From NCBI GenBank assembly GCA_037445995.1, contig JBBIJK010000004.1, positions 30,451-94,450 of the forward strand: a stretch of DNA of 64,000 bases, written 5' to 3'. The position numbers and the translations under genes were made by a program. The notes beneath the pieces were generated by a model that ran no database searches, was not told where the DNA came from, and worked only from the letters and a program-made list of their open reading frames with translations. Source of the stretch: Actinomycetota bacterium. GTDB taxonomy: Bacteria > Actinomycetota > Coriobacteriia > Anaerosomatales > D1FN1-002. Shown in pieces: positions 1-34,560 of this stretch (within the stretch, counting starts at the first letter, position 1; each line of letters opens with the position of its first letter).

Positions 1-1
1 C

Positions 2-448
2 CTGAAGCTCGAGCGGAACCCCGAGGACTCCGACGCGAGGCTGGAGCTGGCGAACATCTACTTCGACGTGCGGGACAGGACAGGCAGCCTGGACGCGGGT
101 CTGAAGGCCATCAAGCACTACGAACGCTACCTGTCCCGCCAGCCCGACGCGGTGAACGCCCGAGCCGACTACGCTGCCGTCCTGTTCTACACGGGCCAGA
201 CCGACGTGGCCATCCAGCAGATCAGCAAGGTCCTCGAGGCGGAGCCTCGGCACGTCAAGGCCAACTTCAACCTCGGCATCTTCTACTGGAAGGGCCGGGG
301 TGACCTCCGCGCGGCTCACGCGCAGTTCAAGAAGGTCGAAGAGGCCACGAAGGTGGGCGACCAGGTCACCCTCGGGATCAACGCCGAGGCGAAGACCAAC
401 GCCGCCGAGATAGAGAAGGAAGCCAAGGCGGCGGGGATCACGCTATGA
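2..448 (+). CDS. TPR-repeat protein, C-terminal part (5' end lies outside the window)
   Basis: Frame 2 is open from the first base (LKLERNPEDSDARLELANIYFDV...) into ORF 68..448. It has TPR-like helical repeats (NFNLGIFYWKGRGDLRAAHAQFKKV). The stop overlaps the trxB start (ATGA). Confidence 0.6.
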   Translation: MKLERNPEDSDARLELANIYFDVRDRTGSLDAGLKAIKHYERYLSRQPDAVNARADYAAVLFYTGQTDVAIQQISKVLEAEPRHVKANFNLGIFYWKGRGDLRAAHAQFKKVEEATKVGDQVTLGINAEAKTNAAEIEKEAKAAGITL

Positions 449-1425
449 GCGAAGCGGCTGCCGGAAGAGACGTCATCGACATCGCCATCATCGGCGCCGG
501 GCCTGCGGGCCTGACGGCGGCGCTGTACGCTTCACGTGCCCGCGCCAAGACCGTGGTGTTCGAGAAGGGCATACCCGGAGGCCAGATCGTCACCACGGAC
601 CACGTCGAGAACTACCCTGGGTTCCCCGGCGGGCTTTCGGGCGCGGAGCTCGGCGCGCTCATGACAAGGCAAGCCGAGGAGTTCGGCGCCGTCATCCGCA
701 CCTTCACCGACGTGTCGTCGGTCGAGCCCGCGGGGCTCGATTTCCTGCTGCGCACGGTCGACGGCGAGGAGTTCTTGGCCAGGGCGGTCATCCTGGCCAC
801 CGGCGCTGTGCCTCGCAAAATCGGCGTCCCCGGGGAGGCCGAGTACACCGGGCGAGGTGTCTCCTGGTGCGCGACGTGCGACGGCGCGCTCTTCCGCGAC
901 AAGGTGGTGGCGGTGATCGGAGGCGGCGACGCGGCCGTGGAGGAGGCTCTGTTCCTCACCAAGTTCGCCTCGCGGGTCCACATCGTCCACCGGCGGGACG
1001 AGCTTCGCGCGACCAAGTGCATCCAGGAGCGGTGCTTCGACAACCCGAAAGTGTCGTTAGAGTGGAGCAGGGTGGTAGCCTCCATCGAGGGGGACGGTGA
1101 GCGCGTCACGGGACTCGTGCTGGCCTCCACCAAGGGTGAGCCGGAGGTCGTCCTCCCGGTCGACGGGGTGTTCATCTTCGTGGGCGTCCATCCCGTGAGC
1201 GAGCTGGTGCGCGAGCTCGTGGCGTGCGACGATGCCGGCTACGTGCGGATCGACCACGACGGACGGACGGAGCAGCCGGGTATGTACGCAGCGGGCGACG
1301 TGACCGACTCCGAGCTCAAGCAGGTGGTGACCGCCGCCGCCAAGGGTGCGTCGGCAGCTTTCGAGGCGCTCCGCTACATTGATTCGAAGACGTGTGGTGT
1401 CCGGATGGAGGGAGAGGGAACGTGA
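445..1425 (+). CDS. trxB: Thioredoxin-disulfide reductase (FAD/NAD(P)-binding)
   Basis: 326 aa. GxGxxG dinucleotide motifs (IIGAGPAG, VIGGGDAAVEEA), the redox-active CATCDG motif, and a thioredoxin gene immediately downstream. Confidence 0.93.
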   Translation: MSEAAAGRDVIDIAIIGAGPAGLTAALYASRARAKTVVFEKGIPGGQIVTTDHVENYPGFPGGLSGAELGALMTRQAEEFGAVIRTFTDVSSVEPAGLDFLLRTVDGEEFLARAVILATGAVPRKIGVPGEAEYTGRGVSWCATCDGALFRDKVVAVIGGGDAAVEEALFLTKFASRVHIVHRRDELRATKCIQERCFDNPKVSLEWSRVVASIEGDGERVTGLVLASTKGEPEVVLPVDGVFIFVGVHPVSELVRELVACDDAGYVRIDHDGRTEQPGMYAAGDVTDSELKQVVTAAAKGASAAFEALRYIDSKTCGVRMEGEGT

Positions 1426-1751
1426 GCGAGAACATCATCGACGTAACCGACGCCAGCTTCGAGGAGGATGTGGTCGGCTCCAGCCTCCCCGTCGTCCTCG
1501 ACTTCTGGGCCCCTTGGTGCGGCCCGTGCCGCATGATGGAGCCCGTCCTCGAGGAGGTCGCAGCCGAGTACGCCGGCAAGCTCGTCGTCGGCAAGCTGAA
1601 CGTCGACGAGAACCCGCAGGTAGCCACCAGGTACGACATCCTGTCCATCCCCTCTCTCCTCGTTTTCGCGGACGGTCAGGTCGCCAAGAAGCTGGTGGGC
1701 GCGATGCCCAAGAAGCGGCTGCTCGAGGAACTGTCCGGCTTGGTCGGCTGA
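1422..1751 (+). CDS. trxA: Thioredoxin
   Basis: WAPWCGPCR active site. I place the start at GTG 1422, preceded by GGAGGGAGAGGGAA and overlapping the trxB stop, rather than at the ORF-track start 1392. Confidence 0.92.
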   Translation: MSENIIDVTDASFEEDVVGSSLPVVLDFWAPWCGPCRMMEPVLEEVAAEYAGKLVVGKLNVDENPQVATRYDILSIPSLLVFADGQVAKKLVGAMPKKRLLEELSGLVG

Positions 1752-1763
1752 GGGAGACTCGCG

Positions 1764-2009
1764 ATGTGCCAGCAGGGGATCAACATCGACCAGCTGAAGC
1801 TGTCCGTCGCCCAGACCGGCGATGTCATCGGCGTCGCCCAGTCCTCCCTCGAGCAGCTGCATCACGTCGCGGACAGCGGCGGACGGGCTGAGGCGAGCGC
1901 CCGTATCGCGCAGGCATCGGTGCTGCTTGGCGAGGCGCGCGCGAAGCTGGAGGAGGCCATCAGGGACCTCGGTGGCGAATCCGGCGGCTTCACGGTCGAG
2001 CTCGTCTGA
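1764..2009 (+). CDS. Small hypothetical helical protein (81 aa)
   Basis: Strong G/C third-position bias in this frame and co-directional with trxBA. No motif recognised. The competing minus ORF 1374..2069 looks like a shadow ORF. Confidence 0.4.
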   Translation: MCQQGINIDQLKLSVAQTGDVIGVAQSSLEQLHHVADSGGRAEASARIAQASVLLGEARAKLEEAIRDLGGESGGFTVELV

Positions 2010-2062
2010 CCGAACAGGACCCGACACACAGCGGCGCTCGCGCGTCGATGGCGAGAAGCCGT

Positions 2063-2090
2063 TTGACACCCTTCAGGCGGGTGCTACACT
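2063..2090 (+). promoter_or_regulatory. Sigma-70-like promoter of the nikR operon
   Basis: TTGACA (2063-2068), a 16-nt spacer, then TGc-TACACT (2082-2090, extended -10). Located about 35 nt upstream of the nikR start. Confidence 0.45.
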
Positions 2091-2126
2091 TTCTCCACTC
2101 GTGCTACCCGACGCGTGGAGGTACCC

Positions 2127-2546
2127 GTGTCCGACTTGGTGCGGTTCGGTGTCGCGATGGAGCGCTCCCTGTTGGAGCGGTTCGACGAGCTGGTAAAGAG
2201 ACGCGGTACGGCCCGCAACCGCTCCGAGGCGGTGCGTGACCTGGTCAGAGACGCACTGGTCGACGCCGCGTGGGAGAGCTCGCACGAGGAGGCGGTAGGC
2301 ACCGTCACGATGGTGTTCGATCATCACGCCGCCGAACTTGCCGACAAGCTCGACTCGCTCCAGCACGCTCACCACGACCGGGTGGTCTCGACACTCCACG
2401 TCCACCTTGACGCCCACAACTGCCTCGAGGTGCTGGTCGTCCGGGGCCGGAGCAGCGAGATCCGAGCGATCGCCGACACGCTTCTAGGAACCAAGGGCGT
2501 CAAGCACGGGAAACTCGTGATGACCACGACGGGCCAAGGACTCTAG
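2127..2546 (+). CDS. nikR: Nickel-responsive transcriptional regulator NikR (ribbon-helix-helix + C-terminal metal-binding domain)
   Basis: N-terminal RHH ([19 protein letters not shown]...[12 protein letters not shown]) and a C-terminal His-rich ACT-like domain ([21 protein letters not shown]). GTG 2127 follows GGAGG (2117-2121). A Ni/Co ECF transporter lies immediately downstream. Confidence 0.85.
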
Positions 2547-2554
2547 GAGGAGAG

Positions 2555-3484
2555 ATGCACATCCCTGACGGCATGCTGTCCGTCCCCACAGTGGCGATCA
2601 GCGGCGCCGCTTCCGCTGGCTACGTCGCGTTGGCGCTGCGGCGCATCCGGGCTGGATTCGACCAGCGGCGCGTCGTCCTCGCCTCGGTGACCGCAGCCCT
2701 CGTCTTCGCGCTGCAGATGCTGAACTTCCCGGTAGCAGCGGGGACCTCCGGGCACTTCGCGGGCGGAGCGTTCGCGGCGATACTGCTCGGCCCGCTGACC
2801 GCGAGCGTGGTGATGACAGCGGTGCTGGCGGTGCAGGCGTTCGTCTTCCAGGACGGCGGCGTCCTGGCCTTGGGTGCCAACATCCTCAACCTCGGAGTGA
2901 TAGCGCCGCTGACGGGGTGGGCCGTGTGGAGGTTCGTCACCGGGGTCTGGGCCGCAGCGCGCCCGCTCGCCGCGTTCGCGGCGGCATGGTGCTCGGTGGT
3001 CGTCGCGGCGCTGGCCGCCGGCGCCGAGATCTGGCTGTCGGGCAACGCGCGGCTGGACCTCATCCTCGGGGCGATGGGCGCGTGGCATGCGGTGATCGGC
3101 GTCGGCGAGGGGCTCATCACCGCCGGGATTGTCGGCTACGTCTGGAAGGTGCGTCCCGACCTCCTTGAAGCCGGTCCCGCGACGACCCGTGCCGGAGTGG
3201 CGGGACCGGCCCTCACCTTCGCGGCACTCGCGGTGGCAGCAGCCGGGCTGTCCTTCCTCGCATCGAGCCACCCTGACGGCCTGGAGTACGTCTATTTCGA
3301 GCGTGGCGTGGGACGCGCCTTCGAAGAACGCTCGCTTTTCGAAAGCCCCATCCCCGACTACGTGTTCCCAGGAGTGGGCAGTGAGGCTCTGGCCGGCGTC
3401 CTGGCGGGCCTCGCGGGCGTGATCGTCACAGGCACCCTCATCTGGGCCGGGGTGTCCGGAGCGCGCTACAGGCGAAAAGACTGA
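2555..3484 (+). CDS. ECF-type Ni/Co transporter substrate-capture component CbiM/NikM with C-terminal PDGLE-domain extension
   Basis: The N-terminus MHIPDGML is the hallmark metal-ligating start of CbiM/NikM. The protein is polytopic, and its C-terminal ~90 aa contain SHPDGLEY (PDGLE motif). Confidence 0.85.
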   Translation: MHIPDGMLSVPTVAISGAASAGYVALALRRIRAGFDQRRVVLASVTAALVFALQMLNFPVAAGTSGHFAGGAFAAILLGPLTASVVMTAVLAVQAFVFQDGGVLALGANILNLGVIAPLTGWAVWRFVTGVWAAARPLAAFAAAWCSVVVAALAAGAEIWLSGNARLDLILGAMGAWHAVIGVGEGLITAGIVGYVWKVRPDLLEAGPATTRAGVAGPALTFAALAVAAAGLSFLASSHPDGLEYVYFERGVGRAFEERSLFESPIPDYVFPGVGSEALAGVLAGLAGVIVTGTLIWAGVSGARYRRKD

Positions 3485-3487
3485 GGC

Positions 3488-4354
3488 GTGGCTCTCGACC
3501 ACGACGCCGGCCGGCACCAGCTGCACGGTCACGAGCACGCCCACGCCGACGAGCCCGAGCACCGGCATCCCCACCACCACGACCCCTCCGGCACCCATGA
3601 TCATGCGCACGCCATGGGCTTCGAGCGCCACGCGTACCTCGTCTCGCCTGTGCACGATCTTGACCCTCGCTTCAAGGTCGTGATGGCCCTGACGCTCGCT
3701 GTCGCCGCCGCCGGCGGCCCCCCGCTGCGAGCGGCAGAGTTCCTGGCCCTCTGCGCACTGCTGGCGGCCGTCGCCGTGATCGCCAAGCTCCCGCTGGGCT
3801 GGGCGCTGACCCGGAGCCTGGCTGTTCTGCCGTTCGCGCTGGGCATCGCAGCCTTCGCTCCTCTCGCCCGCGCGGACGCCCTGGAGTGGCCCGCGATCGT
3901 GAGGGCCTACTCGGAGGGGCACCCGATCGTCTGGTCCATCGCATCCAAGGCTTGGGTGTCGGCGTCGGCGGCCCTACTGCTCGTCGCGACGACGCCACTA
4001 CCCCGGCTGTTCAAGGCGCTCGCGTCTCTGCGGGTTCCCGACACGCTCCTGACCATGCTGACGTTCCTCTACCGCTTCACGGACGTCTTCTCTAGGCAGG
4101 TGGTGTCGATGAGGCGGGCGATCGCGGCAAGAGCCCCCCGGATGAGGCCGATTGCCCTGGCCACCGTGTACGGCGGACTGGCCGGCAACCTTCTGGTACG
4201 CGCCTATGAACGCGGCGAGCGGGTTCACGCCGCCATGCTCTCGCGCGGGTACACCGGGACCCTGCCCTCCCCTGAGCCGTTCAGGGCGCGGTCGTCCGAC
4301 TGGGTGGCGCTGGCGACGATCGTGATGGCGTCAGCCGCCTCGATCCTGTACTGA
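3488..4354 (+). CDS. ECF transporter transmembrane (T) component CbiQ/NikQ with His-rich N-terminal extension
   Basis: The core begins ...HAYLVSPVHDLDPRFKVV, typical of a CbiQ N-terminus, and has the conserved Arg-rich coupling region (FRFTDVFSRQVVSMRRAIAARA). It is preceded in frame by 42 codons containing 14 His, with coding-like GC3. Confidence 0.8.
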   Translation: MALDHDAGRHQLHGHEHAHADEPEHRHPHHHDPSGTHDHAHAMGFERHAYLVSPVHDLDPRFKVVMALTLAVAAAGGPPLRAAEFLALCALLAAVAVIAKLPLGWALTRSLAVLPFALGIAAFAPLARADALEWPAIVRAYSEGHPIVWSIASKAWVSASAALLLVATTPLPRLFKALASLRVPDTLLTMLTFLYRFTDVFSRQVVSMRRAIAARAPRMRPIALATVYGGLAGNLLVRAYERGERVHAAMLSRGYTGTLPSPEPFRARSSDWVALATIVMASAASILY

Positions 4355-4369
4355 ACGGAGGCGACACAG

Positions 4370-5119
4370 ATGACGCATCTCCCTCCGGCCTTGGACGTGA
4401 GCGGACTGGAGCACAGGTATCCCGACGGGACCGAGGCCCTCGCGGGCGTGGACATGCGGGTCGACGCGGGCGAACGGGTCGCCCTGCTGGGCCCCAACGG
4501 CGCTGGCAAGTCCACCCTGATCCTGCACCTGAACGGGATCGTGTTGCCACAGGTCGGCTCGGTCACGGTGGAGGGCCGGCGGTTGTCCGCCGACACCGCC
4601 GGAGAGATCCGCGCTCGGGTGGGCCTGGTGTTCCAGGATCCCGACGACCAGCTCTTCATGACCACCGTGTACGACGATGTCGCGTTCGGACCGCTGAACA
4701 TGGGTCTTAGCCGTGAGGAAGTCGACGCGCGGGTACGCTTCGCCCTCGATGCCGTGGGGCTCACATCGGCGGCCAGCAAGCCAGGGGCGAACCTCTCGGT
4801 GGGGCAGCGAAGGAGAGCCGCCCTGGCCACGGTCATCGCGATGGGCCCGGCGATCCTAGTTCTCGACGAGCCGACCTCCAACCTCGACCCTCGGTCACGG
4901 CGCGAGATGGAGGCGCTGCTCGCTTCGCTGGAGGTGACCTTGATCGTGGCGACCCACGACATGGATGTCGCGTGGCGCCTGTGCGAACGCGCCGTGGTGC
5001 TGGACGCAGGCCGGGTGGTCGCCGACGGCGCCGTCCGGGACCTTCTCTCAGACGAGGCGCTGATGGTCGGACACGGGCTGGAGCTCCCGCCCGCAGTGGC
5101 GGCGCGGTCTTCGCTATGA
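4370..5119 (+). CDS. ECF transporter ATPase CbiO/NikO
   Basis: Walker A GPNGAGKST, signature LSVGQRRR, Walker B ILVLDEPTSNLD. Confidence 0.88.
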   Translation: MTHLPPALDVSGLEHRYPDGTEALAGVDMRVDAGERVALLGPNGAGKSTLILHLNGIVLPQVGSVTVEGRRLSADTAGEIRARVGLVFQDPDDQLFMTTVYDDVAFGPLNMGLSREEVDARVRFALDAVGLTSAASKPGANLSVGQRRRAALATVIAMGPAILVLDEPTSNLDPRSRREMEALLASLEVTLIVATHDMDVAWRLCERAVVLDAGRVVADGAVRDLLSDEALMVGHGLELPPAVAARSSL

Positions 5120-5126
5120 TCGCCAG

Positions 5127-5771
5127 ATGAAGCGCAACCAGCACAAGCATGTGGTCCATGACCCGGGTGCCCAAGGCGTGCCCGCGTACTTCGAATGCCC
5201 CGAGTGCGGCTTCCTCTCGGCCGACGAAGCGTTCGGACGCGGCGAGCGCGGATGCCCCGAGTGCGGCCGCAGCGGCTCCGCGCCTAGGGACTTCCCCACC
5301 GAGAGGCTCCGCCGGCTAGACGGCCGGATCCGCGGCTACTATGCCGAGGGCGAGTGGGAGGTCGTCGTCATCCTGGCCGAGACCTTCCTCGAAGCCATCC
5401 TCGAGGACATCATCGACCGCATCCTCGGGGCGCACGGCGCGGACGTCGCCGTGCGCTCGGTGGTGCTCGACGGGCAGCGCGCCATCGGGGCCCGGATCGG
5501 CAGGCTCTTCCCTCACCTCGTCGGCGAGGAGTTCGAGGAGGTCGCCCACGAGCTGGGGTACCGTGAGTTCCCGAGACGCTGGAGGCGACTGCGCGAGGCG
5601 CGCAACGCGTTCATCCACGACTCGCCCTTCCGCGGTCCGCAGGAGGCACTCGACGAGAGAACGGCCCGCGAGGCCATGGAGCTGCTCGATCAGGCGTACC
5701 GGCTGTTCGTCCTCATCAACAACCGCTTCGTGGCCGACGGGCGTCACCGCGCGCAGCAGGCGGGCGGATGA
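5127..5771 (+). CDS. Hypothetical protein: N-terminal Zn-ribbon (CPEC-X15-CPEC) + ~150-aa helical domain
   Basis: High GC3. The start is 8 nt after the nikO stop and the stop overlaps the hypF start (ATGA). The N-terminus is MKRNQHKHVVHD followed by two CPECG knuckles. Confidence 0.6.
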   Translation: MKRNQHKHVVHDPGAQGVPAYFECPECGFLSADEAFGRGERGCPECGRSGSAPRDFPTERLRRLDGRIRGYYAEGEWEVVVILAETFLEAILEDIIDRILGAHGADVAVRSVVLDGQRAIGARIGRLFPHLVGEEFEEVAHELGYREFPRRWRRLREARNAFIHDSPFRGPQEALDERTAREAMELLDQAYRLFVLINNRFVADGRHRAQQAGG

Positions 5772-8116
5772 GGGCGCTTCACGTCCATGTGACCGGCGTG
5801 GTCCAGGGCGTCGGATTCAGGCCCTTCGTCTACGACCTGGCGGTCAGGCTCGGCCTGCGCGGCTGGGTCCGCAACAGCTCGGAGGGCGTCTTCGCGGTCG
5901 TCGAGGGAGAGCCGGGCGCCCTCGAGGAGTTCGCTCGTCGCATACGCGACGACGCGCCCCCGATGGCCGTGGTGGACTCGGTGACCGCACGGGAGGTCGC
6001 GGTCCAGGGATTCGAAGCGTTCCGCATCGAGGAATCCGAGGTACTTGAGGGGGCGATGACCCTCGTCTCCCCCGACATCGCGACGTGCGATCCCTGCCTT
6101 CGGGAGATGCGGGACCCATCGGACCGACGCTACCGCTATCCCTTCGTGAACTGCACCAACTGCGGACCGCGGTTCACCATCATCGCCGACGTCCCGTACG
6201 ACCGTCCCTCCACCTCGATGAGGGATTTCCCGATGTGCGAGGAGTGCGGCCGCGAGTACGGCGACCCCTCGGACAGGCGCTTCCACGCGCAACCCGACGC
6301 CTGCTTCGTCTGCGGTCCTAGGCTGTACCTGAACCCCTCCAGCGCGGCTTCGGTCGCCATGGACGCCGATTGGGTCTGGAGCCCGGATAGGCAGACCGCT
6401 CCGCGGCTGCACCGGGACCTCCAGACCGAGCGGGCCCGCTCCGGCGGCATCATAGACCGGGCGGCGGAGCTCCTGGCGGACGGCGGGACGCTGGCCCTCA
6501 AAGGCCTGGGCGGCTTCCAGTTGGTCTGCGACGCCACCTCGGAGGCGGCCGTCGCACGCCTTCGCGGACGCAAGCGCCGCTGGGGCAAGCCGCTGGCCGT
6601 GATGGCCCAGGACCTCGAGGCGGCTCGTGCCCTGGCGCGAATCGACGACGCGGAGGCCGACCTGCTCGCCAGCACCGCGCGTCCTATCCTCCTCGCACGA
6701 CGCGGGGGGTCGGACGTCCTCGCGCCCTCGGTGGCGCCCGGGGTCGCGGAGATCGGGCTGATGCTCCCCTACACCCCGCTGCACCATCTGCTGCTCGAGG
6801 CGGTCGGGCGCCCCGTGGTCATGACCTCGGGCAACCTGTCCGACGAGCCCATCGCGACCGGCAACTCAGAAGCGCTCGAGCGTCTGGACCCCATCGCCGA
6901 CGCGTTCCTCCTTCACGACCGGGAGATCCTCTCCCGGTACGACGACTCGGTCACGCGGGTCGTGGGCGGGTCCTTCCAGTCCGTCCGGCGAGCGCGCGGG
7001 TACGCCCCGTTCCCGCTGCGCATGCCCGTCGGCAGCGACGTGGACATCCTCGCCGTCGGACCCGAACAGAAGAACACGTTCACTTTGGTCCGCGGTGACC
7101 TCGCTTTCGTCTCCCAGCACATCGGGGACATGGAGAACGCCCAGACCCTCGAAAGCTTCGAGGAGACCATTGCTCTGTACGAGAGGCTCTTCCGCGTCAC
7201 TCCGGGCCTGGTCGCGCACGATCTCCACCCCGAGTACCTCTCGACCAAGCACGCCATGCGCCTGGACCTGCCTCGCGTGGGCGTGCAGCACCATCACGCG
7301 CACATCGCGAGCGTCATGGCGGAGAACGACGTCCGAGAGCGTGTCGTGGGCGTCGCGTTCGACGGCACCGGCTACGGCGTCGACGGCACGATCTGGGGTG
7401 GAGAGGTCCTCCTCGCGGACACGGCGGGGTTCGAGCGCTTCGCGCACCTGCGGGCGGTCCCGATGCCCGGGGGTGTTGCCGCGATCCGCCGCCCCGCGCG
7501 CATGGCGGTCGGGACGCTGGCCTCGCTGGGGCTGCTGGAGCACCCCGGCGCGGCCACGCTCCGCGCGCGACTGGCCGAGGGCGAGGAGGAGATCGTGCTC
7601 CGGATGGTGGAGCGCGCCGTGAACACCCCGCTCACCTCGTCGATGGGGAGGCTGTTCGACGCTGTGTCCGCGCTCGCGGGGGTGCGCGACGACGCCCTGT
7701 ACGAAGGCCAGGCCGCGGTGGAGCTCGAGGCGATCGCCGACCTCGCGTCCGACGGCGCCTACCGGTTCGCGATGGACGGCGCTGGGCCCTTGGTGATCGA
7801 CCCCGCGCCGGTGCTGGAAGCCGCGTTGGACGACCTGGCACGCGGGGTGCAGCCGTCCATGGTGTCCGCCCGCTTCCACCGGGCGGTGGTGGATGCCGTG
7901 GTCCGGGTCGCGGCCTTGGCCGCGGACGCTGCGCACACCGCCGACGTGGCGCTCGCCGGAGGGGTGTTCATGAACCGGATCCTGCTCGAGGGTTCGATGG
8001 TCGCCCTTGGCGAGGCCGGGCTCACGCCCCTCGTCCATCGGGACCTGCCCTCCAACGACGCGGCCGTGTCCCATGGGCAGGCGTTCGTTGCGTGCTCGAA
8101 GCTTCTTGCGATATAA
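5768..8116 (+). CDS. hypF: [NiFe]-hydrogenase maturation carbamoyltransferase HypF
   Basis: 782 aa. Acylphosphatase-like N-terminus (VTGVVQGVGFRPFV), two Zn-finger pairs (CDPCLREM...NCTNCGPRFTI; CEECGREY...CFVCGPR), and YrdC-like and Kae1-like C-terminal domains. Confidence 0.95.
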   Translation: MRALHVHVTGVVQGVGFRPFVYDLAVRLGLRGWVRNSSEGVFAVVEGEPGALEEFARRIRDDAPPMAVVDSVTAREVAVQGFEAFRIEESEVLEGAMTLVSPDIATCDPCLREMRDPSDRRYRYPFVNCTNCGPRFTIIADVPYDRPSTSMRDFPMCEECGREYGDPSDRRFHAQPDACFVCGPRLYLNPSSAASVAMDADWVWSPDRQTAPRLHRDLQTERARSGGIIDRAAELLADGGTLALKGLGGFQLVCDATSEAAVARLRGRKRRWGKPLAVMAQDLEAARALARIDDAEADLLASTARPILLARRGGSDVLAPSVAPGVAEIGLMLPYTPLHHLLLEAVGRPVVMTSGNLSDEPIATGNSEALERLDPIADAFLLHDREILSRYDDSVTRVVGGSFQSVRRARGYAPFPLRMPVGSDVDILAVGPEQKNTFTLVRGDLAFVSQHIGDMENAQTLESFEETIALYERLFRVTPGLVAHDLHPEYLSTKHAMRLDLPRVGVQHHHAHIASVMAENDVRERVVGVAFDGTGYGVDGTIWGGEVLLADTAGFERFAHLRAVPMPGGVAAIRRPARMAVGTLASLGLLEHPGAATLRARLAEGEEEIVLRMVERAVNTPLTSSMGRLFDAVSALAGVRDDALYEGQAAVELEAIADLASDGAYRFAMDGAGPLVIDPAPVLEAALDDLARGVQPSMVSARFHRAVVDAVVRVAALAADAAHTADVALAGGVFMNRILLEGSMVALGEAGLTPLVHRDLPSNDAAVSHGQAFVACSKLLAI

Positions 8117-8149
8117 GCATCTGGCACCCTCACGGAGGAGGTCCCGACG

Positions 8150-8410
8150 ATGTGTCTAGCGATCCCGGCCAAGATAGTGTCCATCGGAGAGCTGAACATG
8201 GCCGAAGTGGACATCTTGGGCGTGTCACGCCACGTGAGCCTCGACATGACACCTGAAGCGAAAGTCGGCGAGTTCGTGCTGGTACACGCCGGCTTCTCCA
8301 TCCAGGTCGTGGACGAGGCCTACGCCCAGGAGACCCTTGAGACCCTCAAGCAGCTCGACATCGTCGGGGACGAGATCGGGCCCCCTGACGCCGCCGAGAG
8401 CGACGCGTGA
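8150..8410 (+). CDS. hypC: Hydrogenase assembly chaperone HypC/HupF
   Basis: MCLAIPAKIV N-terminus (essential Cys2), 86 aa, RBS GGAGGAGG upstream. Confidence 0.9.
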   Translation: MCLAIPAKIVSIGELNMAEVDILGVSRHVSLDMTPEAKVGEFVLVHAGFSIQVVDEAYAQETLETLKQLDIVGDEIGPPDAAESDA

Positions 8411-8414
8411 CGCG

Positions 8415-9509
8415 ATGGACCTCAACACCGGCTTCCGCGACCCCGAGGTAGCCAAGCGCCTCATCGACTCGATCGCCGCGACCTCCAGGACGCCCGTGAA
8501 GATCATGGAGGTGTGCGGGACCCACACCGTCGCCATCGCCAAGAACGGGCTGCGCGAGGTGATGCCCGATAGCATCACGCTGCTGTCCGGGCCCGGTTGC
8601 CCCGTCTGCGTCACCGCCAACCGTGACATCGACACCGCCATCGAGTTCGGTCGCGTGCCCGGAGTGGTGCTCGCGACCTTCGGCGACATGATGAAGGTCC
8701 CGGGGTCCTACAGCTCACTCGCGCGCGAGAAGGCCGACGGCAGGGACATCCGCGTCGTCTACTCCCCCCTCGACGCGCTGCGGATCGCGGCCGACGAGCC
8801 TGACAAGCAGGTGGTGTTCCTAGGCGTGGGCTTCGAGACCACCGCGCCGACGATCGCCTCGGTCATCCGCCAGGCCAAGCTCCAGGAAGTCGGCAACTTC
8901 TCCGTCCATTCCGTCCACAAGACCGTCCCGGAGGCTCTTCGCGCGCTGGTCAACGATCCCGAGGTCAAGGTCAACGCTTTCATCCTCCCCGGTCACGTCT
9001 CCGTGATCATCGGCCTTGAGCCCTATCGATTCCTCGCAAGCGAGTTCGGCGTCCCTTCTGTCATCACCGGGTTCGAGCCGGTGGACATCCTCCAGGGCAT
9101 CCACATGATCGTGCAGCAGTTCGAGTCAGGGCGCGCGGAGGTGGAGATCGCCTACAAGCGGAGCGTCGCCCCCGAGGGCAACCCTGCGGCGCTGGCCATC
9201 CTCGAGCAGGTCTTCGAACCGGCCGACGCCGACTGGCGCGGCATCGGCGTCATACCCGGCACCGGGCTGGCGATCCGCGAGGAGTACGCGGACCTCGACG
9301 CCGCCAAGCGCTTCCAGATCGATCCTCCGGAGGTCAAGGAGATCGCCGGCTGCCAGTGCGGCGACGTGCTCCGGGGAGTGGTCCTTCCCTTCGAGTGCAG
9401 GCTGTTCGCCAAATCGTGCACGCCAGAGCACCCGATCGGGCCGTGCATGGTCTCCTCGGAGGGGTCCTGCGCAGCCTACTACCGCTTCACCGACTACGGG
9501 CGATCCTGA
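8415..9509 (+). CDS. hypD: Hydrogenase maturation factor HypD
   Basis: CGTHT and GPGCPVCV motifs and a C-terminal Cys cluster. ATG 8415 is chosen because the ORF-track start 8337 would overlap hypC. Confidence 0.93.
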   Translation: MDLNTGFRDPEVAKRLIDSIAATSRTPVKIMEVCGTHTVAIAKNGLREVMPDSITLLSGPGCPVCVTANRDIDTAIEFGRVPGVVLATFGDMMKVPGSYSSLAREKADGRDIRVVYSPLDALRIAADEPDKQVVFLGVGFETTAPTIASVIRQAKLQEVGNFSVHSVHKTVPEALRALVNDPEVKVNAFILPGHVSVIIGLEPYRFLASEFGVPSVITGFEPVDILQGIHMIVQQFESGRAEVEIAYKRSVAPEGNPAALAILEQVFEPADADWRGIGVIPGTGLAIREEYADLDAAKRFQIDPPEVKEIAGCQCGDVLRGVVLPFECRLFAKSCTPEHPIGPCMVSSEGSCAAYYRFTDYGRS

Positions 9510-9550
9510 CGGCCCCGACCAGTCCCGCCGGCTTGGGAAAAGGAGTCAAC

Positions 9551-10558
9551 GTGCAGGACCGCATCCTTCTTGCTCACGGAAGCGGCGGGACGATGATGCG
9601 CGAGCTCATCGAGGAGCTGTTCGTCGCCGAGTTCGGCGACGAGGCCCTGCGCCGCATGGACGACGCTGCGTCATTCGAGCTCCCCGCTGGAAGGGCCGCG
9701 ATGTCCACCGACACGTACGTCGTCAGCCCGCTTTTCTTCCCTGGCGCCGACATCGGCAGGCTGGCCGTCTGCGGGACGGTGAACGACATCGCCACCTCCG
9801 GCGCCACGCCGATGTTCCTCTCGGTCGGATTCGTACTTGAAGAGGGGCTGCCCGTCGAGGACCTGCGGCGGATCGTGGTGTCGATGCGCGAGGCGGCCAG
9901 CGAAGCGGGGGTCCGAATCGTCACGGGCGACACCAAGGTCGTCGACAAGGGCCACGGCGACGGCGTGTACATCAACACAGCCGGCTTGGGAGTGATCCCC
10001 GACGGCATCGATCTCTCAGGCTCATACGCCAAGCCCGGCGACAAGATCTTGCTCTCGGGTACCCTTGGCGACCACGGCATCGCGGTCGTCTCCACCCGCG
10101 AGGGGCTGTCCTTCTCCACCGACATCCTCTCCGACGCGGCCCCACTCTCGGCGATGGTGGCGGCCGTGCTCGACGCCGCCCCCGACGCACGCTGCTTCCG
10201 GGACCCCACCAGGGGCGGGCTGTCGTCGGCCCTGAACGAGATCGCGTCGGCGTCCGGCGTTTGCGTCGTGGTCGACGAGGCATCCGTCCCCGTCCGGGAC
10301 CAGGTCAGGGGCGCGTGCGAGATGCTAGGGTACGACGTGTTCCACGTGGCCAACGAAGGCAAGATGCTCGCGGTCGTACCCGCGGACGGAGCCGACGCGG
10401 CCCTTGGGGCGATGCGCGGAGCACCCTACGGCGAAGACGCCCAGATCATCGGCGAGGTCATCGAGGGGACGGGCGGCAGGGTCTATGTCGACACCGTCTT
10501 CGGCGCCCGACGGATCATGGACATGCTCGTCGGAGAGCAGCTGCCGCGCATCTGCTGA
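9551..10558 (+). CDS. hypE: Hydrogenase maturation carbamoyl dehydratase HypE
   Basis: PurM/AIR-synthase-like fold sequence and a C-terminal ...PRIC. GTG 9551 follows AAAGGAG; the ORF-track start 9356 lies inside hypD. Confidence 0.93.
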   Translation: MQDRILLAHGSGGTMMRELIEELFVAEFGDEALRRMDDAASFELPAGRAAMSTDTYVVSPLFFPGADIGRLAVCGTVNDIATSGATPMFLSVGFVLEEGLPVEDLRRIVVSMREAASEAGVRIVTGDTKVVDKGHGDGVYINTAGLGVIPDGIDLSGSYAKPGDKILLSGTLGDHGIAVVSTREGLSFSTDILSDAAPLSAMVAAVLDAAPDARCFRDPTRGGLSSALNEIASASGVCVVVDEASVPVRDQVRGACEMLGYDVFHVANEGKMLAVVPADGADAALGAMRGAPYGEDAQIIGEVIEGTGGRVYVDTVFGARRIMDMLVGEQLPRIC

Positions 10559-10600
10559 CGCGCGCCGCCCCGGGGGCCCACGCTGGGCTACACTCCGGGG

Positions 10601-11536
10601 ATGCCGGACCAGCCTGATACCGCGCGGATATCGACTCGCTCCGGCTTGGTGCGGATCGCCGCGGCGGCCACCGTATGGGGCTCGATACCGCTGTTCGTGC
10701 GCTGGGTGGACGCCTCCCCGCTGGTCATCGTGTTCTGGCGGCTGGTGTTCGAATGCGGCGCGCTGGCTGTCGTCATGGCCCTGAGGGGCACATCGCGCGA
10801 GTTCCTGACCCTCCCGGCTCGGACGCGGGCGGTGCTTGCCGGGATGGGGGCCCTGCTGGCCCTGAACTGGGTGCTGTTCTTCATCGGCCTGAAGCTCACC
10901 GACGTCGCCGTCGCGGTGCTGCTCGCCTACACCGGCCCCATCCTGGTCGCCGTCCTCGGACCGCTGATCCTGCGAGAGCCGCGAGACAGGCGGCTGGCGG
11001 CACCGCTCGCCCTGGCCGCGCTCGGGACCGCGCTGGTCGTCTCCCCCGGCGGACTGTCGCTCGATGCGCGGCACATCGCCGGTGCGGCGGCCGCCCTGGC
11101 GTCGGCGTTCACCTACGCGGCCCTCGTCCTGAACGCCAAACGCCTCATCCGCGGGATTTCCACCGACGTGTACATGCTGGCCGAGAGCCTCGCCGCCGCG
11201 CTGCTGCTCCTCCCGGCCGCACTGCTCCTTCCCAGCCCCGACTCCGCGCGCGAATGGGTCGGCCTGGCCACGCTCGGCATCGTGCACACCGCGCTGACGG
11301 GCATGCTGTTCCTGTCGGGACTGCGCGCGGTGAGGGCCGATCACGCCGCCGCGCTGACCTACGCCGAGCCGGCGGCGGCCGTGCTGTTCGCTGCGGCCTT
11401 CCTTGGCGAGCCGATCACGGTCACGTCGGCCGCCGGAGGGGTCGCCATCGTGTGCGCGGGCGTCGCGGTCGCCAGGCTGAGGCCCGTGGCAGCACCGGAG
11501 CAGATGCCGGCCGCAGGCCCCCCCTCCACCGCCTAA
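10601..11536 (+). CDS. EamA/DMT-family transporter
   Basis: 311 aa, about 10 TM helices in two EamA-like halves (WGSIPLFVR..., LFLSGLR...). Confidence 0.78.
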   Translation: MPDQPDTARISTRSGLVRIAAAATVWGSIPLFVRWVDASPLVIVFWRLVFECGALAVVMALRGTSREFLTLPARTRAVLAGMGALLALNWVLFFIGLKLTDVAVAVLLAYTGPILVAVLGPLILREPRDRRLAAPLALAALGTALVVSPGGLSLDARHIAGAAAALASAFTYAALVLNAKRLIRGISTDVYMLAESLAAALLLLPAALLLPSPDSAREWVGLATLGIVHTALTGMLFLSGLRAVRADHAAALTYAEPAAAVLFAAAFLGEPITVTSAAGGVAIVCAGVAVARLRPVAAPEQMPAAGPPSTA

Positions 11537-11631
11537 CTCCACCGCGACCAGACCCCTGCTCCAAGGGAAGGTCCCGCGCTGGCTGCCCGCGTCCGTTACT
11601 ATCGGGTGGAACTCACGACGGCGGAGGCTTG

Positions 11632-13275: not shown

Positions 13276-13292
13276 GCCTCAGCGGAAAGCAG

Positions 13293-13324
13293 AGGCGCCA
13301 GCCCGCGTATGCGGACCGGCGCCT
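13293..13324. terminator. Bidirectional hairpin between convergent pgi and the symporter gene
   Basis: AGGCGCC-agc-CCGC-gtat-GCGG-acc-GGCGCCT, i.e. 7 bp + 4 bp stems. There is no clear U-tract. Confidence 0.4.
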
Positions 13325-13344
13325 CACAGCGAACGCGGATCGTG

Positions 13345-15192: not shown

Positions 15193-15572
15193 GCCTGCGC
15201 CCCCTCTCGCGCCGTGAGATCGGCCTCGGCCTTGTCGGCCATCTTGTTCAGGCGCTCGTCAAGACTGTCGGCCTGCTTGGAGTACATCCATGCCATGACC
15301 CACAGGAACACGTAGTACAGCAGGGAAACGACCATCCAGTTCGGGGTGAACCCCTTGCCCGTGCCCGCGTACCACCACTCGGATGTCACGGTGAGCGCGG
15401 GTATCGCGAGCGTCACGGCGAAGAACACGAAGCCGTACGCGAAGCTGAGCTTGCGCTGCTCGTGGAAGACCGCGTCGACCGTCTCGACCGTGTCGATGTG
15501 GTCGCCGTACTTGACGTACTTGACGCCGTTGATCGTGCCGCTCTCGTAATCCTGGCTCGTCATCCTGTGCAC
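15189..15572 (-). CDS. Small two-TM membrane protein, DUF485/YjcH-like partner of the symporter
   Basis: 127 aa with two hydrophobic helices and a C-terminal ...MYSKQADSLDERL resembling the DUF485 tail. 4-nt overlap with the symporter start; RBS AAGAGGAGGTG. Confidence 0.6.
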   Translation of the reverse strand: MHRMTSQDYESGTINGVKYVKYGDHIDTVETVDAVFHEQRKLSFAYGFVFFAVTLAIPALTVTSEWWYAGTGKGFTPNWMVVSLLYYVFLWVMAWMYSKQADSLDERLNKMADKAEADLTAREGAQA

Positions 15573-22741: not shown

Positions 22742-22749
22742 ACGTCCCC

Positions 22750-24582: not shown

Positions 24583-25145
24583 CCGTCCCTCGACATCCCC
24601 TCGAACACCCCGGCCAAGCCGGTGCGACGCATCGCCGCGAGCAGCGGCCAGCCCAATCCGTAGACGACGAGAACCTGACCCGCGCCTACAGCGGCCATGC
24701 CGAGAAGGTACATCGCGAACCAGGAGTCCTCAAGCCTCCAGCCAAGCGCCGGTATGTCGTAAAAGCCGCTGCCAGCCAGGATAAGGGGCAGGTACGCTGG
24801 CACTATCAGGGCGTTGGCCACGACCGGCCCGGCGAGCGCCACGCCCGTGCGGCCTCGCATCCGCCAGCTCCAGGCGGCGCCCGCCAGCGACCCGAGCGGG
24901 CCGAAGACCATGTCCAGCCAGCCCATGGGCTGCGAGAGGTTCCACGCGTTGGCTATCAGCGCCCCGAGCCACAGCCCGGGGATCGCGGCGGGCGTCACGC
25001 ACCCCAGCACTGTGAGCGCCTCGCTGATCCGAAGCTGGACGGGCCCCCAGGCCAGGGCCTGGAACGTGGAGAGCGTGAGAAGCGTGGCGGCGGCGTAGAG
25101 GGCCGCGATCACTCCGGCCTGTGCGACGAGACGTGAGGCGCGCAA
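24579..25145 (-). CDS. QueT-family (ECF S-component-like) membrane transporter
   Basis: 188 aa, about 5-6 TM. AALYAAATLL...GPVQLRISEALTVL...IPGLWLGALIAN matches QueT-family hallmarks as I remember them. TTG start after GGAGA. Confidence 0.7.
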   Translation of the reverse strand: MRASRLVAQAGVIAALYAAATLLTLSTFQALAWGPVQLRISEALTVLGCVTPAAIPGLWLGALIANAWNLSQPMGWLDMVFGPLGSLAGAAWSWRMRGRTGVALAGPVVANALIVPAYLPLILAGSGFYDIPALGWRLEDSWFAMYLLGMAAVGAGQVLVVYGLGWPLLAAMRRTGLAGVFEGMSRDG

Positions 25146-34500: not shown

Positions 34501-34550
34501 CAGGCCCTTCCGTCGACTGCGGGGTTGTGTCAGAGGACCGTCCGCGCCCG

Positions 34551-34560
34551 ATTCTAGCAC
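34551..34560 (-). promoter_or_regulatory. Extended -10 element GTGCTAGAAT upstream of the HAMP-GAF-HD-GYP gene
   Basis: The same 10-mer as at 25182-25191. It sits about 50 nt upstream of ATG 34500. Confidence 0.4.

What the first reader, a model, noticed from the sequence alone, without database searches (positions are those of the whole stretch)
2063..10558. Single nikR-led super-operon joining a Ni/Co ECF importer to hypFCDE, with no hypA/hypB and no hydrogenase structural genes
From the promoter at 2063-2090 to the hypE stop, ten genes are co-directional with gaps of 45 nt or less and several overlapping stop/start codons: nikR, nik/cbiM-PDGLE, Q, O, Zn-ribbon ORF, hypF, hypC, hypD, hypE. 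The Fe(CN)2CO-building half of the [NiFe] maturation pathway (HypCDEF) is thus physically fused to nickel uptake and to its repressor. The canonical nickel-insertion pair HypA/HypB is missing from the unit, and no hydrogenase large or small subunit or maturation protease lies within 64 kb. The only hydrogenase-like protein in the window is an [FeFe]-type sensor, which would not use Hyp proteins.
Basis: partly seen in the sequence, partly recalled or inferred. Interest (0 to 1): 0.6.

Follow-up and report, generated by a model that had tools for sequence, protein, structure and literature searches.

The report
Nickel importer joined to hypFCDE genes
A nickel-uptake gene set and its nickel-sensing repressor sit directly in front of four hydrogenase-maturation genes in an uncultured relative of the hydrogen-oxidising Anaerosomatales. 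The layout is real and common in that group, but it looks like an ordinary split of the maturation genes across the genome, not a new pathway.

Summary
On the + strand lie nikR, a fused nik/cbi(MN), Q, O, a 214-aa Zn-ribbon ORF, then hypF, hypC, hypD and hypE. That is nine ORFs with gaps of 41 nt or less. No HypA, HypB, [NiFe] hydrogenase subunit or maturation protease lies in the 64 kb.

The interpretation needs revision.
1. In 80 related species genomes the backbone trxB-trx-s81-ZnR-hypFCDE-eamA-pgi is fixed. The Ni module is a variable insert at one junction: absent in about 27, and present in four layouts drawn from two unrelated transporter lineages.
2. The Zn-ribbon gene has its own conserved leaderless-type promoter (TGnTACAAT 6-7 nt before the start codon in 67/79 relatives; TATGAT in the window). 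The "super-operon" is therefore most likely two nested units.
3. The nikR promoter carries a conserved NikR box (GTGCTAC-N13-GTGCTAC, 2081-2107).
4. Cultured Parvivirga hydrogeniphila has the same locus. The published description of that strain lists a group 1i [NiFe] hydrogenase and a further pair of hyp genes elsewhere.
5. hypFCDE sets without hypAB are already documented in Clostridium acetogens.

The Zn-ribbon protein is not HypA. It resembles a HEPN protein of defence-island ancestry. I could not scan this genome for hypAB.

Verdict: a new member of a known kind, of modest interest.

The parts
445..2009 (+). Conserved upstream backbone: trxB (445-1425), trx (1422-1751) and an 81-aa ORF 's81' (1764-2009).
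   Evidence: Pfam families in the gene calls. The same three genes precede the locus in nearly all of the 80 relatives.
2063..2090 (+). Promoter P1: TTGACA, 16-nt spacer, TACACT, with a TG extension.
   Evidence: Best of only two promoter-like matches in 1-15500, where shuffles give 0.8 on average. A TTGAC -35 and a -10 inside the first NikR half-site recur in nikR-led relatives.
2081..2107 (+). NikR operator: GTGCTAC-N13-GTGCTAC, overlapping the -10 element and the likely transcription start.
   Evidence: It is the only match in the 64 kb, where 0.03 are expected by chance. Exact matches occur only in loci that carry nikR, once each, in 28 of the 95 loci held. Phylogenetic footprint. The half-site matches the published NikR consensus GTGTTAC-N13/14-GTAACAC (PMC545781).
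2127..2546 (+). nikR, a nickel-responsive ribbon-helix-helix repressor (139 aa).
   Evidence: RHH_1 plus NikR_C. NF003381 scores 208 bits against a cut-off of 105. The HxH...C metal-site residues are present ([10 protein letters not shown]).
2555..3484 (+). nik/cbi(MN): the ECF substrate-capture component fused to a PDGLE (N-like) domain.
   Evidence: CbiM at 1.9e-57 and PDGLE at 1.2e-10. The N-terminus is MHIPDG, His67 is present and the motif HPDGLE is present. All CbiM equivalog models score below their cut-offs.
3488..4354 (+). nik/cbiQ (T component) with a His-rich N-terminal tail. About 18 His fall in the first 48 residues, encoded by roughly 3488-3630.
   Evidence: TIGR02454 scores 116.1 against a cut-off of 111.8. 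Sequence. The tail (core HRHPHHH, 12-17 His) recurs in the CbiQ of the co-directional module lineage and is missing from the divergent-layout lineage.
4370..5119 (+). nik/cbiO, the ECF ATPase.
   Evidence: ABC_tran. TIGR01166 scores 212.0 against a cut-off of 211.8.
5115..5120 (+). Promoter P2 -10 element (TATGAT), 6 nt upstream of the ZnR ATG. It overlaps the cbiO stop codon and implies a leaderless transcript.
   Evidence: The same position holds TGnTACAAT or TAGAAT in 67/79 relatives. Ten control genes show 0-2 hits each (alignment). The nearest relative, L097, has TGgTACAAT inside cbiO.
5127..5771 (+). ZnR: a 214-aa protein with a Zn ribbon (C24, C27, C43, C46) and a helical HEPN-like domain (E89, R159-N160-x3-H164). 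It is the first gene of the hyp unit and overlaps hypF by 4 nt.
   Evidence: 414 homologues, the listed ones 59-84% identical, all from Coriobacteriia or Anaerosomatales assemblies. Invariant residues. AF2 model with pLDDT 83. The top PDB folds are HEPN proteins but the matches are weak. The motif holds in a wider superfamily of 287 representatives. Not HypA: hhalign probability 1.4%.
5768..8116 (+). hypF, the carbamoyltransferase.
   Evidence: TIGR00143 scores 774 bits against a cut-off of 466. All five domains are present. Both CxxC-x18-CxxC fingers are present.
8150..8410 (+). hypC, the chaperone.
   Evidence: PF01455 and TIGR00074. The N-terminus is MCLAIP with the essential Cys2.
8415..9509 (+). 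hypD, the scaffold for Fe(CN)2CO assembly.
   Evidence: TIGR00075 scores 474 against a cut-off of 193. The CGTH, GPGCPVC and C-terminal Cys motifs are present.
9551..10558 (+). hypE, the carbamoyl dehydratase.
   Evidence: TIGR02124 scores 451 against a cut-off of 252. The C-terminal PRIC motif is present.
10589..11536 (+). Downstream boundary: a -10-like TACACT (10589-10594) lies 6 nt before the eamA ATG (10601-11536). pgi follows at 11632-13275.
   Evidence: EamA and PGI appear in the gene calls. A TANNNT at the same distance occurs in 18/49 relatives. The hypE-eamA-pgi order is conserved.

Best explanation
This is a nickel-uptake module placed directly upstream of a self-sufficient hydrogenase-maturation operon. 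The two most likely form nested transcription units rather than one operon.

Unit 1. P1 (2063-2090) drives nikR-nik(MN)-nikQ-nikO. When nickel is plentiful, Ni-NikR binds GTGCTAC-N13-GTGCTAC (2081-2107) over the -10 element and shuts off its own synthesis and that of the importer. When nickel is scarce, the ECF-type importer is made. NikMN captures Ni2+ with its MHIPDG N-terminus, and NikQ and NikO energise transport. The His-rich NikQ tail may receive or buffer the incoming nickel. Because there is no terminator, transcription probably runs on into the hyp genes.

Unit 2. A -10 element (TATGAT, 5115-5120) lies 6 nt before the ZnR start codon. It should give a leaderless ZnR-hypF-hypC-hypD-hypE transcript whatever the nickel level. 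HypF and HypE make cyanide from carbamoyl phosphate. HypC and HypD build Fe(CN)2CO and load it into a [NiFe] hydrogenase large subunit.

Nickel insertion (HypA/HypB), the hydrogenase and its protease are most likely encoded elsewhere in the genome, as reported for cultured relatives.

What is shown: gene identities, spacing, the conserved operator, the conserved internal -10 element and the variable presence of the module. What is inferred: promoter activity, read-through, nickel rather than cobalt specificity, the role of the His tail, and the presence of hypAB and a hydrogenase in this genome.
For: - Gene identities and intact catalytic motifs.
- P1 is the better of only two promoter-like matches in 15.5 kb. 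No terminator-like site lies on the + strand between 1169 and 15225.
- The NikR box is unique in the window, with 0.03 expected. Exact matches occur only in nikR-bearing loci and the box is conserved by footprinting. Its half-site equals the published NikR consensus (PMC545781).
- The internal promoter: TANNNT lies 6-8 nt before the ZnR start in 67/79 relatives (57 are TACAAT, 54 have a TG extension). Ten other genes of the locus show 0-2 hits each. The element persists even when it is embedded in the cbiO coding sequence.
- Modularity: of 80 species genomes, about 27 have no Ni module at the s81|ZnR junction, 15 have the window's layout, 17 lack nikR, 12 have a divergent layout and 6 have another.
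- The modules belong to two lineages. CbiMN is about 35% identical between them, while HypD is about 75% identical across the same genomes.
- Split arrangement in a cultured relative: the P. hydrogeniphila ZnR is MCL4078356. Its locus is cbiMN-Q-O-ZnR-hypFCDE-eamA-pgi, with no hypAB or hydrogenase within 10 kb either side. The species description lists hyp proteins MCL4078352-4 plus MCL4079307-8, and a group 1i hydrogenase with protease at MCL4078930-2 (PMC9686372).
Against: - hypA, hypB and a [NiFe] hydrogenase were not demonstrated in this genome. The species is not in the searchable genome collection (best hit 71% identity). Only contigs carrying this one locus could be retrieved, and there is no way to list the other contigs of an assembly.
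- The window's P2 lacks the TG extension and differs from TACAAT at two positions. It may be weaker than in relatives, which would make hyp expression depend more on P1.
- There are no transcript data. Leaderless initiation is inferred from geometry and from what is established for Actinobacteria.
- A survey of mud-volcano MAGs does not name its Anaerosomatales MAG among the examples it gives of hyaB/hybC carriers (PMC11279179).
Confidence: 0.6

Rival explanations
1. This is a true single NikR-governed super-operon in a genome that lacks HypA and HypB. Nickel would reach the hydrogenase directly from the co-expressed importer, for example through the His-rich NikQ tail or the Zn-ribbon protein.
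For: - The gene string is compact and has no terminators.
- The window's internal -10 element is the most degenerate among those aligned.
- NikQ carries about 18 His in 48 residues. This recalls the His-rich nickel-storage domains of some HypB proteins (PMC12134894).
- E. coli hypB mutants are rescued by high nickel (PMC12134894).
- Clostridium autoethanogenum, C. ljungdahlii and others have hypFCDE but no detectable hypAB (PMC9431212).
Against: - The P2 element is conserved across the clade and TATGAT is still a 5/6 match to the -10 consensus.
- A nickel-repressed hyp operon would switch off maturation exactly when nickel is available.
- About 27 of 80 relatives keep ZnR-hypFCDE with no importer beside it.
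- The published description of cultured relatives that carry ZnR reports HypABCDEF.
- ZnR shows no similarity to HypA. Its distant relatives sit in defence-island contexts.
Confidence: 0.15
2. The co-location has no functional meaning. The s81|ZnR junction is simply a permissive insertion site, and the importer serves other nickel (or cobalt) enzymes.
For: - The module is absent in about a third of relatives and comes in four layouts and two lineages.
- The whole region is strongly syntenic, so adjacency alone carries little information.
- The hyp unit has its own promoter.
Against: - Two unrelated importer lineages were installed at the same junction, and a module is present there in at least 50 of 80 species.
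- The other extra genes seen beside this locus are also nickel-related: a DUF3842-CooT pair in 19 loci.
- In every layout that carries nikR, the importer gene or genes adjacent to ZnR point into it from a promoter region that holds a NikR box.
- Clustering of nikMNQO with genes for nickel enzymes is a recognised pattern (PMC545781; PMC2667541).
Confidence: 0.2
3. The transporter is a cobalt importer (CbiMNQO), and the link to hydrogenase maturation is spurious.
For: The best NCBIfam names for the M component are 'cobalt transporter CbiM', and the Q and O models are also named for cobalt.
Against: - Every CbiM equivalog model scores far below its cut-off.
- The operon is led by NikR and carries a NikR box.
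- No B12 riboswitch or any other Rfam element lies in the region.
- The neighbours are hyp genes and, in relatives, CooT.
Confidence: 0.05

Closest known systems
nik(MN)QO / NikR regulons described by comparative genomics (Rodionov et al. 2004, PMC545781; Zhang et al. 2009, PMC2667541)
   Same: - An ECF-type M(N)QO importer.
- A NikR gene adjacent to it.
- A NikR box with GTGTTAC-type half-sites 13 nt apart.
- Frequent location next to hydrogenase or urease genes.
   Different: - Here the half-sites are in direct rather than inverted orientation.
- N is a PDGLE domain fused to M.
- Q carries a His-rich tail.
- The neighbour is the hypFCDE half only, not a hydrogenase structural operon.
E. coli nikABCDE-nikR plus hypABCDE and hypF
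   Same: The logic is the same. NikR represses nickel import, which feeds [NiFe] hydrogenase maturation. The hyp genes are split between loci (hypF lies apart from hypABCDE).
   Different: - The transporter class differs (a peptide/nickel ABC system with a periplasmic binding protein).
- The transporter is not linked to hyp genes.
- The split falls between F and ABCDE, not between AB and FCDE.
Parvivirga hydrogeniphila and Anaerosoma tenue (Anaerosomatales; PMC9686372)
   Same: The backbone is the same: trxB-trx-s81-[Ni importer]-ZnR-hypFCDE-eamA-pgi (L098). ZnR falls in a cluster whose representative is 66% identical to the window's protein.
   Different: The P. hydrogeniphila module lacks nikR and a NikR box. 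It has a DUF3842-CooT pair instead. Its hydrogenase and second hyp pair are documented. Those of the window's genome are not.
hypFCDE clusters of Clostridium autoethanogenum, C. ljungdahlii, C. coskatii and C. ragsdalei (PMC9431212)
   Same: The genes are adjacent in F-C-D-E order, with no hypA or hypB beside them.
   Different: In those genomes hypAB were not found anywhere. No nickel importer or NikR is reported next to the cluster.
HEPN-domain proteins (for example ST0689 / PDB 1wol and AF_0298 / PDB 2hsb; defence and toxin RNases)
   Same: - An invariant R-N-x3-H motif fitting Rx4-6H.
- A conserved acidic residue on an early helix.
- An all-helical domain.
- Distant homologues lie next to MmeI-type restriction enzymes or AbiJ.
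   Different: - No Pfam, PADLOC or PHROG HEPN model matches.
- The fold match is weak (E about 1).
- The protein has an N-terminal Zn ribbon.
- In this clade it is a conserved single-copy gene fixed in front of hypF, not a mobile defence gene.

Membership tests
NikR | N-terminal ribbon-helix-helix domain plus a C-terminal nickel-binding ACT-like domain. | tested here: met
   PF01402 and PF08753 match. NF003381 scores 208 bits against a cut-off of 105.
NikR | High-affinity nickel-site residues (His-x-His, Cys and a His from the neighbouring subunit). | tested here: met
   The sequence contains QHAHHD...[10 protein letters not shown]. The assignment is by inspection against my own knowledge of the E. 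coli H76/H87/H89/C95 pattern.
NikR | A two-half-site operator, 13-16 nt apart, in the promoter of a nickel-uptake operon. | tested here: met
   GTGCTAC-N13-GTGCTAC lies at 2081-2107. The orientation is direct, not inverted as in the published consensus. Binding was not tested.
Group I ECF Ni/Co importer (Nik/Cbi MNQO) | M, Q and O components encoded together, with an N (or K+L) partner for M. | tested here: met
   CbiM plus PDGLE in one ORF, then CbiQ, then an ABC ATPase. TIGR02454 and TIGR01166 score above their cut-offs.
Group I ECF Ni/Co importer (Nik/Cbi MNQO) | Metal-binding N-terminus of M (Met1-His2) and a conserved His at about position 67. | tested here: met
   MHIPDG... and ...GTSGH67F. 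The functional meaning rests on my own knowledge of the NikM2 and CbiM structures.
Group I ECF Ni/Co importer (Nik/Cbi MNQO) | Nickel rather than cobalt specificity. | not testable with these tools
   Only context argues for nickel: NikR, a NikR box and hyp neighbours. The CbiM equivalog models all score below their cut-offs.
HypCDEF Fe(CN)2CO assembly set | All four proteins present with their catalytic motifs. | tested here: met
   TIGR00143, TIGR00074, TIGR00075 and TIGR02124 all score above their cut-offs. HypC Cys2, HypD CGTH and CPVC, HypE PRIC and the HypF double zinc fingers are present.
Complete HypABCDEF maturation system with a [NiFe] hydrogenase | HypA, HypB, a large subunit, a small subunit and an endopeptidase in the same genome. 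| not testable with these tools
   All are absent from the window and from the 10-kb flanks in 80 relatives. The published description of cultured relatives reports them elsewhere in the genome. The rest of this genome could not be reached.
HypA | An N-terminal MHE nickel site plus a CxxC...CxxC zinc domain, with homology to PF01155. | tested here: not met
   The ZnR N-terminus is MKRNQHK. No Pfam hit. hhalign against E. coli HypA gives a probability of 1.4%. Only the generic CxxC pairs are shared.
HEPN domain | A conserved Rx4-6H motif on a helix of an all-alpha bundle. | tested here: met
   R159-N160-A-F-I-H164 is invariant in 30 clade members. R159 and H164 are kept in at least 90% of the 20 aligned sequences, 17 of which are distant homologues about 19-28% identical to the window's protein. 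The model is helical from residue 59 to 212.
HEPN domain | Recognisable fold or profile similarity to known HEPN families. | tested here: inconclusive

The most novel reading that the evidence does not exclude
The Zn-ribbon/HEPN-like protein is a defence-type HEPN protein domesticated in this clade. It would be a dedicated first gene of the hypFCDE operon, with a real role in [NiFe] hydrogenase biogenesis or its control. One example would be an RNA-level regulator of hyp or hydrogenase transcripts. In the window's lineage it might act together with the His-rich NikQ tail to pass nickel from the importer to the maturation machinery, reducing or removing the need for HypA and HypB.
Probability: 0.12. 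Interest if true: 0.65.

Novelty: new member of a known kind. Interest (0 to 1): 0.3.

Why it matters
Clustering of nickel uptake with genes for nickel-enzyme maturation, under NikR control, is an established theme. This locus adds an example from a little-studied group of subsurface hydrogen oxidisers.

Three things it offers beyond that:
1. A natural series of about 80 related genomes in which two unrelated nickel importers were installed, inverted or lost at one junction in front of a fixed hyp operon. This could be used to study how metal supply becomes coupled to cofactor assembly.
2. A conserved uncharacterised gene (Zn ribbon plus a HEPN-like domain) that always leads hypFCDE in this clade. 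It is a concrete candidate for knockout in the cultured species.
3. A His-rich tail on the importer's T component, which suggests a testable hand-off point for nickel.

None of these overturns current understanding.

Tried and rejected
- **Zn-ribbon ORF as a divergent HypA.** Rejected. There is no profile similarity, no MHE N-terminus, and distant homologues sit in defence contexts.
- **Direct search for hypA, hypB or a hydrogenase in the same genome.** Not possible. An exact look-up of HypF failed. The species is not among the genome contigs representatives. Only contigs that carry this one locus could be retrieved. Using E. coli HypB as a bait was judged useless, because the top hits would all be enterobacterial, so that search was not spent.
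- **A NikR-box scan of metagenomes to find other regulon members.** Rejected on paper. I estimated hundreds to thousands of chance matches.
- **Known riboswitch in front of the importer.** None found in the window or in five nikR-less relatives.
- **Bifunctional transaldolase/PGI after hypE.** My first ORF choice (10675-13275) was wrong. The gene calls show eamA followed by pgi.

Full report
**Observation**

The window is 67-71% G+C. Its + strand from 2127 to 10558 encodes nine tightly packed ORFs:
- nikR, 2127-2546
- a CbiM-type S component fused to a PDGLE (N-like) domain, 2555-3484
- cbiQ, 3488-4354
- cbiO, 4370-5119
- a 214-aa ORF with two CPEC pairs, 5127-5771
- hypF, 5768-8116
- hypC, 8150-8410
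- hypD, 8415-9509
- hypE, 9551-10558

Pfam and NCBIfam support every assignment except the 214-aa ORF, which matches nothing. An independent gene call on a contig of the same species gives the same starts. That contig is GCA_964592805.1, CAZQHX010000001.1, with 118 mismatches over 15,771 nt.

The gaps are 8, 3, 15, 7, -4, 33, 4 and 41 nt. The diagnostic residues are all present: HypC Cys2, HypD CGTH and CPVC, HypE PRIC, the two HypF zinc fingers, the NikR HxH...C site and the NikM MHIPDG/His67 residues.

Otherwise the description is accurate.

The rest of the window holds signalling proteins, transporters, polyphosphate kinases and housekeeping genes. Neither those Pfam scans nor a six-frame phmmer search with E. 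coli HypA, HypB, HybF, HycE, HycG, HycI, HybC, HybO and HybD found a hydrogenase or Ni-insertion gene. The hydrogenase-like protein at 22750-24582 (minus strand) is an [FeFe] H-domain fused to GGDEF, so it is a sensor.

**Who it belongs to**

The 214-aa protein (ZnR below) has 414 homologues. The 120 listed are 59-84% identical. Nearly all the named ones come from MAGs labelled Coriobacteriia, Anaerosomatales or Actinomycetota, apart from one mislabelled Clostridiales.

A scan of one genome per species returned 80 loci from this clade. The window's own species is not among them; the best hit is 71% identical.

**The locus is a fixed backbone with a variable nickel insert**

I annotated the 80 loci with phmmer, using the window's proteins and the E. 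coli references. The backbone trxB-trx-s81-ZnR-hypF-hypC-hypD-hypE-eamA-pgi is essentially invariant.

Between s81 and ZnR the content varies:
- nothing, in about 27 genomes
- nikR>MN>Q>O>, as in the window, in 15
- MN>Q>O> without nikR, in 17
- O<Q<nikR< | MN>, in 12
- MN< | nikR>Q>O>, in 6
- partial or unclassified, in 3

The co-directional and divergent layouts use different transporter lineages. CbiMN is about 35% identical between them and 52-78% identical within them. HypD is 70-77% identical across the same genomes. At least two importers were therefore installed independently at the same junction.

No hypA, hypB or hydrogenase gene lies within 10 kb of the locus in any relative.

**Regulation of the first unit**

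TTGACA-16-TACACT at 2063-2090, with a TG extension, is the better of only two promoter-like matches in the first 15.5 kb. No terminator-like site lies on the + strand between 1169 and 15225.

Aligning the nikR upstream regions of relatives exposes GTGYTAC-N13-GTGYTAC overlapping the -10 element. In the window it sits at 2081-2107. It is the only match in 64 kb, where 0.03 are expected. Exact matches occur only in nikR-bearing loci, once each, in 28 of the 95 loci held.

The half-site equals the NikR consensus GTGTTAC-N13/14-GTAACAC derived for delta-proteobacteria (PMC545781). Here the halves are usually in direct orientation. One relative, L013, has the inverted form. Nickel-dependent autorepression of nikR and the importer is thus well supported by sequence, though not by experiment.

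**The second unit has its own promoter**

In relatives that have a spacer upstream of ZnR, a motif cTGnTACAATc ends 6-7 nt before the ZnR start codon. The same motif is present when the upstream sequence is the coding 3' end of cbiO.

Counting TANNNT at 6-8 nt before an in-frame start gives 67/79 for ZnR (57 are TACAAT, 54 have TG). TrxB, Trx, s81, HypF, HypC, HypD, HypE, PGI, CbiQ and CbiO each give 0-2. EamA gives 18/49.

A -10 element at this distance from a start codon is the established signature of leaderless transcripts in Actinobacteria (my own knowledge). The window has TATGAT at 5115-5120, 6 nt before ATG 5127, overlapping the cbiO stop codon. It keeps TAnnAT but lacks the TG extension. 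Its nearest relative (84% ZnR identity, same layout) has TGgTACAAT.

The likeliest architecture is therefore two nested units. One is a NikR-controlled importer operon that may read through. The other is a nickel-independent ZnR-hypFCDE operon. This also removes a paradox in the single-operon reading, in which nickel sufficiency would shut off cofactor assembly. How much the window's weaker-looking P2 contributes remains open.

**Are HypA, HypB and a hydrogenase missing?**

I could not scan this genome. Two lines of evidence bear on the question.

First, a cluster-member look-up shows that the ZnR homologue of cultured Parvivirga hydrogeniphila is MCL4078356.1. Its locus is trxB-trx-DUF3842-CooT-s81-cbiMN-Q-O-ZnR-hypFCDE-eamA-pgi (L098). 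The species description lists hyp proteins MCL4078352-4 and MCL4079307-8. It also lists a group 1i [NiFe] hydrogenase with cytochrome b and a protease at MCL4078930-2, and says both strains encode HypABCDEF (PMC9686372).

By consecutive numbering, 52-54 are hypE, hypD and hypC of this locus. The 9307-8 pair lies about 950 genes away. That assignment is my inference. An obligate hydrogen oxidiser with this same locus therefore appears to keep its remaining hyp genes and its hydrogenase elsewhere.

Second, hypFCDE clusters with no hypAB anywhere in the genome are already described for C. autoethanogenum, C. ljungdahlii and relatives (PMC9431212). In addition, hypB mutants are rescued by high nickel (PMC12134894). 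So neither reading of the 'missing' pair would be unprecedented.

**The Zn-ribbon ORF**

- Thirty clade members share four invariant cysteines and many invariant residues in a helical domain, including E89 and R159-N160-x3-H164.
- A profile search of 1.84 billion representatives finds 287 relatives.
- Members 19-28% identical to the window's protein keep the cysteines, E89, R159 and H164.
- The AF2 model (pLDDT 83) is a small ribbon plus a helical bundle. Its best PDB matches are the HEPN proteins 1wol, 2hsb, 2q00 and 1ufb, but only at E about 1.
- Distant members sit immediately after MmeI-type restriction-modification enzymes or beside AbiJ. These are defence-island settings, not hyp loci.
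- There is no similarity to HypA.

I read ZnR as a HEPN-like protein recruited in this clade as the leading gene of the hyp operon. Its function is unknown, and a link to hydrogenase maturation is possible but untested.

**Other features**

The Q component begins with about 18 histidines in 48 residues. This tail (core HRHPHHH, 12-17 His) is conserved in the co-directional module lineage and absent from the other. A cytoplasmic location and a nickel-buffering role are inferences.

**Comparison and verdict**

- ECF nik(MN)QO genes beside hydrogenase or urease genes, and NikR boxes in front of them, were described two decades ago.
- Split hyp loci are common. E. coli itself separates hypF from hypABCDE.

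The locus is a new member of that kind in a poorly studied clade. Its variant details are the leaderless ZnR-led hyp operon, the direct-repeat operator, the His-tailed Q component and the recurrent installation of importers at one junction.

I score interest at 0.3. The most novel reading that the evidence still allows is that ZnR and/or the NikQ tail take part in nickel delivery or hyp control. I give that about 12%.

Noticed in passing
window 3488-3630 (N-terminus of cbiQ): The ECF T component starts with a His-rich tail (HDAGRHQLHGHEHAHADEPEHRHPHHHDPSGTHDHAH), with about 18 His in 48 residues. The tail, with 12-17 His, is conserved in the CbiQ of relatives with the co-directional module and absent from the divergent-layout lineage.
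   Followed up: partly
L027, L029, L031, L036, L049, L050, L053, L055, L063, L067, L068, L075 (s81-cbiMN spacer, about 95 nt upstream of cbiMN): Relatives whose module lacks nikR have no NikR box. Instead they share a conserved element, GCGCGYTCCCnCGAAGGGnCGCACGA. Its invariant GCACGA can pair with TCGTGC, which covers the cbiMN GTG start codon: six invariant pairs plus three pairs with compensatory changes. No Rfam family matches. It may be a cis-acting translational regulator that replaces NikR.
   Followed up: partly
L098 6377-6992, and 18 other loci (for example L027, L031, L049, L088): A DUF3842 gene and a 64-aa CooT-family gene (a nickel-binding chaperone family) sit between trx and s81 in 19 of 80 relatives. 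These are essentially the nikR-less loci. The pair is absent from the window.
   Followed up: partly
window 2081-2107; L013: The NikR half-sites are direct repeats (GTGYTAC-N13-GTGYTAC) in most of this clade. The published consensus is an inverted repeat. One relative (L013) has the inverted form GTGTTAC-N13-GTAACAC at the same position.
   Followed up: partly
window 21731-25145, minus strand: An [FeFe]-hydrogenase H-domain protein with ferredoxin-like clusters is fused to a GGDEF diguanylate cyclase (22750-24582). It is flanked by a radical-SAM gene (21731-22741) and QueT (24579-25145). It may link hydrogen or redox sensing to c-di-GMP signalling.
   Followed up: no
window 10589-10603: eamA, a DMT-family transporter that always follows hypE in the clade, has TACACT 6 nt before its ATG. 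A similar -10-like hexamer occurs in 18/49 relatives, so eamA may also be transcribed as a leaderless mRNA. That would mark the 3' end of the hyp unit.
   Followed up: partly
ENA ERZ1426824, 79,249-nt contig (locus not numbered); L092 2701-6510; L093 990-2844: Distant homologues of the Zn-ribbon/HEPN-like protein lie immediately downstream of about 1070-aa MmeI-type restriction-modification enzymes (two independent contigs) or next to an AbiJ-family gene. This points to a defence-island origin for the family.
   Followed up: partly
L007 / L010 (MFD04716.bin.2.67), 10650-13400: In this long-read MAG, hypF and hypC are broken into several ORFs. This may be frameshift errors from assembly, or it may be real decay. 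I did not resolve which.
   Followed up: no
window 25211-27334, 31957-34560 (minus strand) and 60525-63221 (plus strand): Three large HD-GYP-type (HD_5) signalling proteins carry GAF, HAMP or GGDEF domains. Several histidine kinases lie in the same window. The density of c-di-GMP signalling genes is unusually high.
   Followed up: no
window 37452-37547 (minus strand); 37708-38865 (plus strand): A bacterial small SRP RNA (68 bits) lies here. Next to it is a baeRF-family (archaeo-eukaryotic release-factor-like) protein.
   Followed up: no
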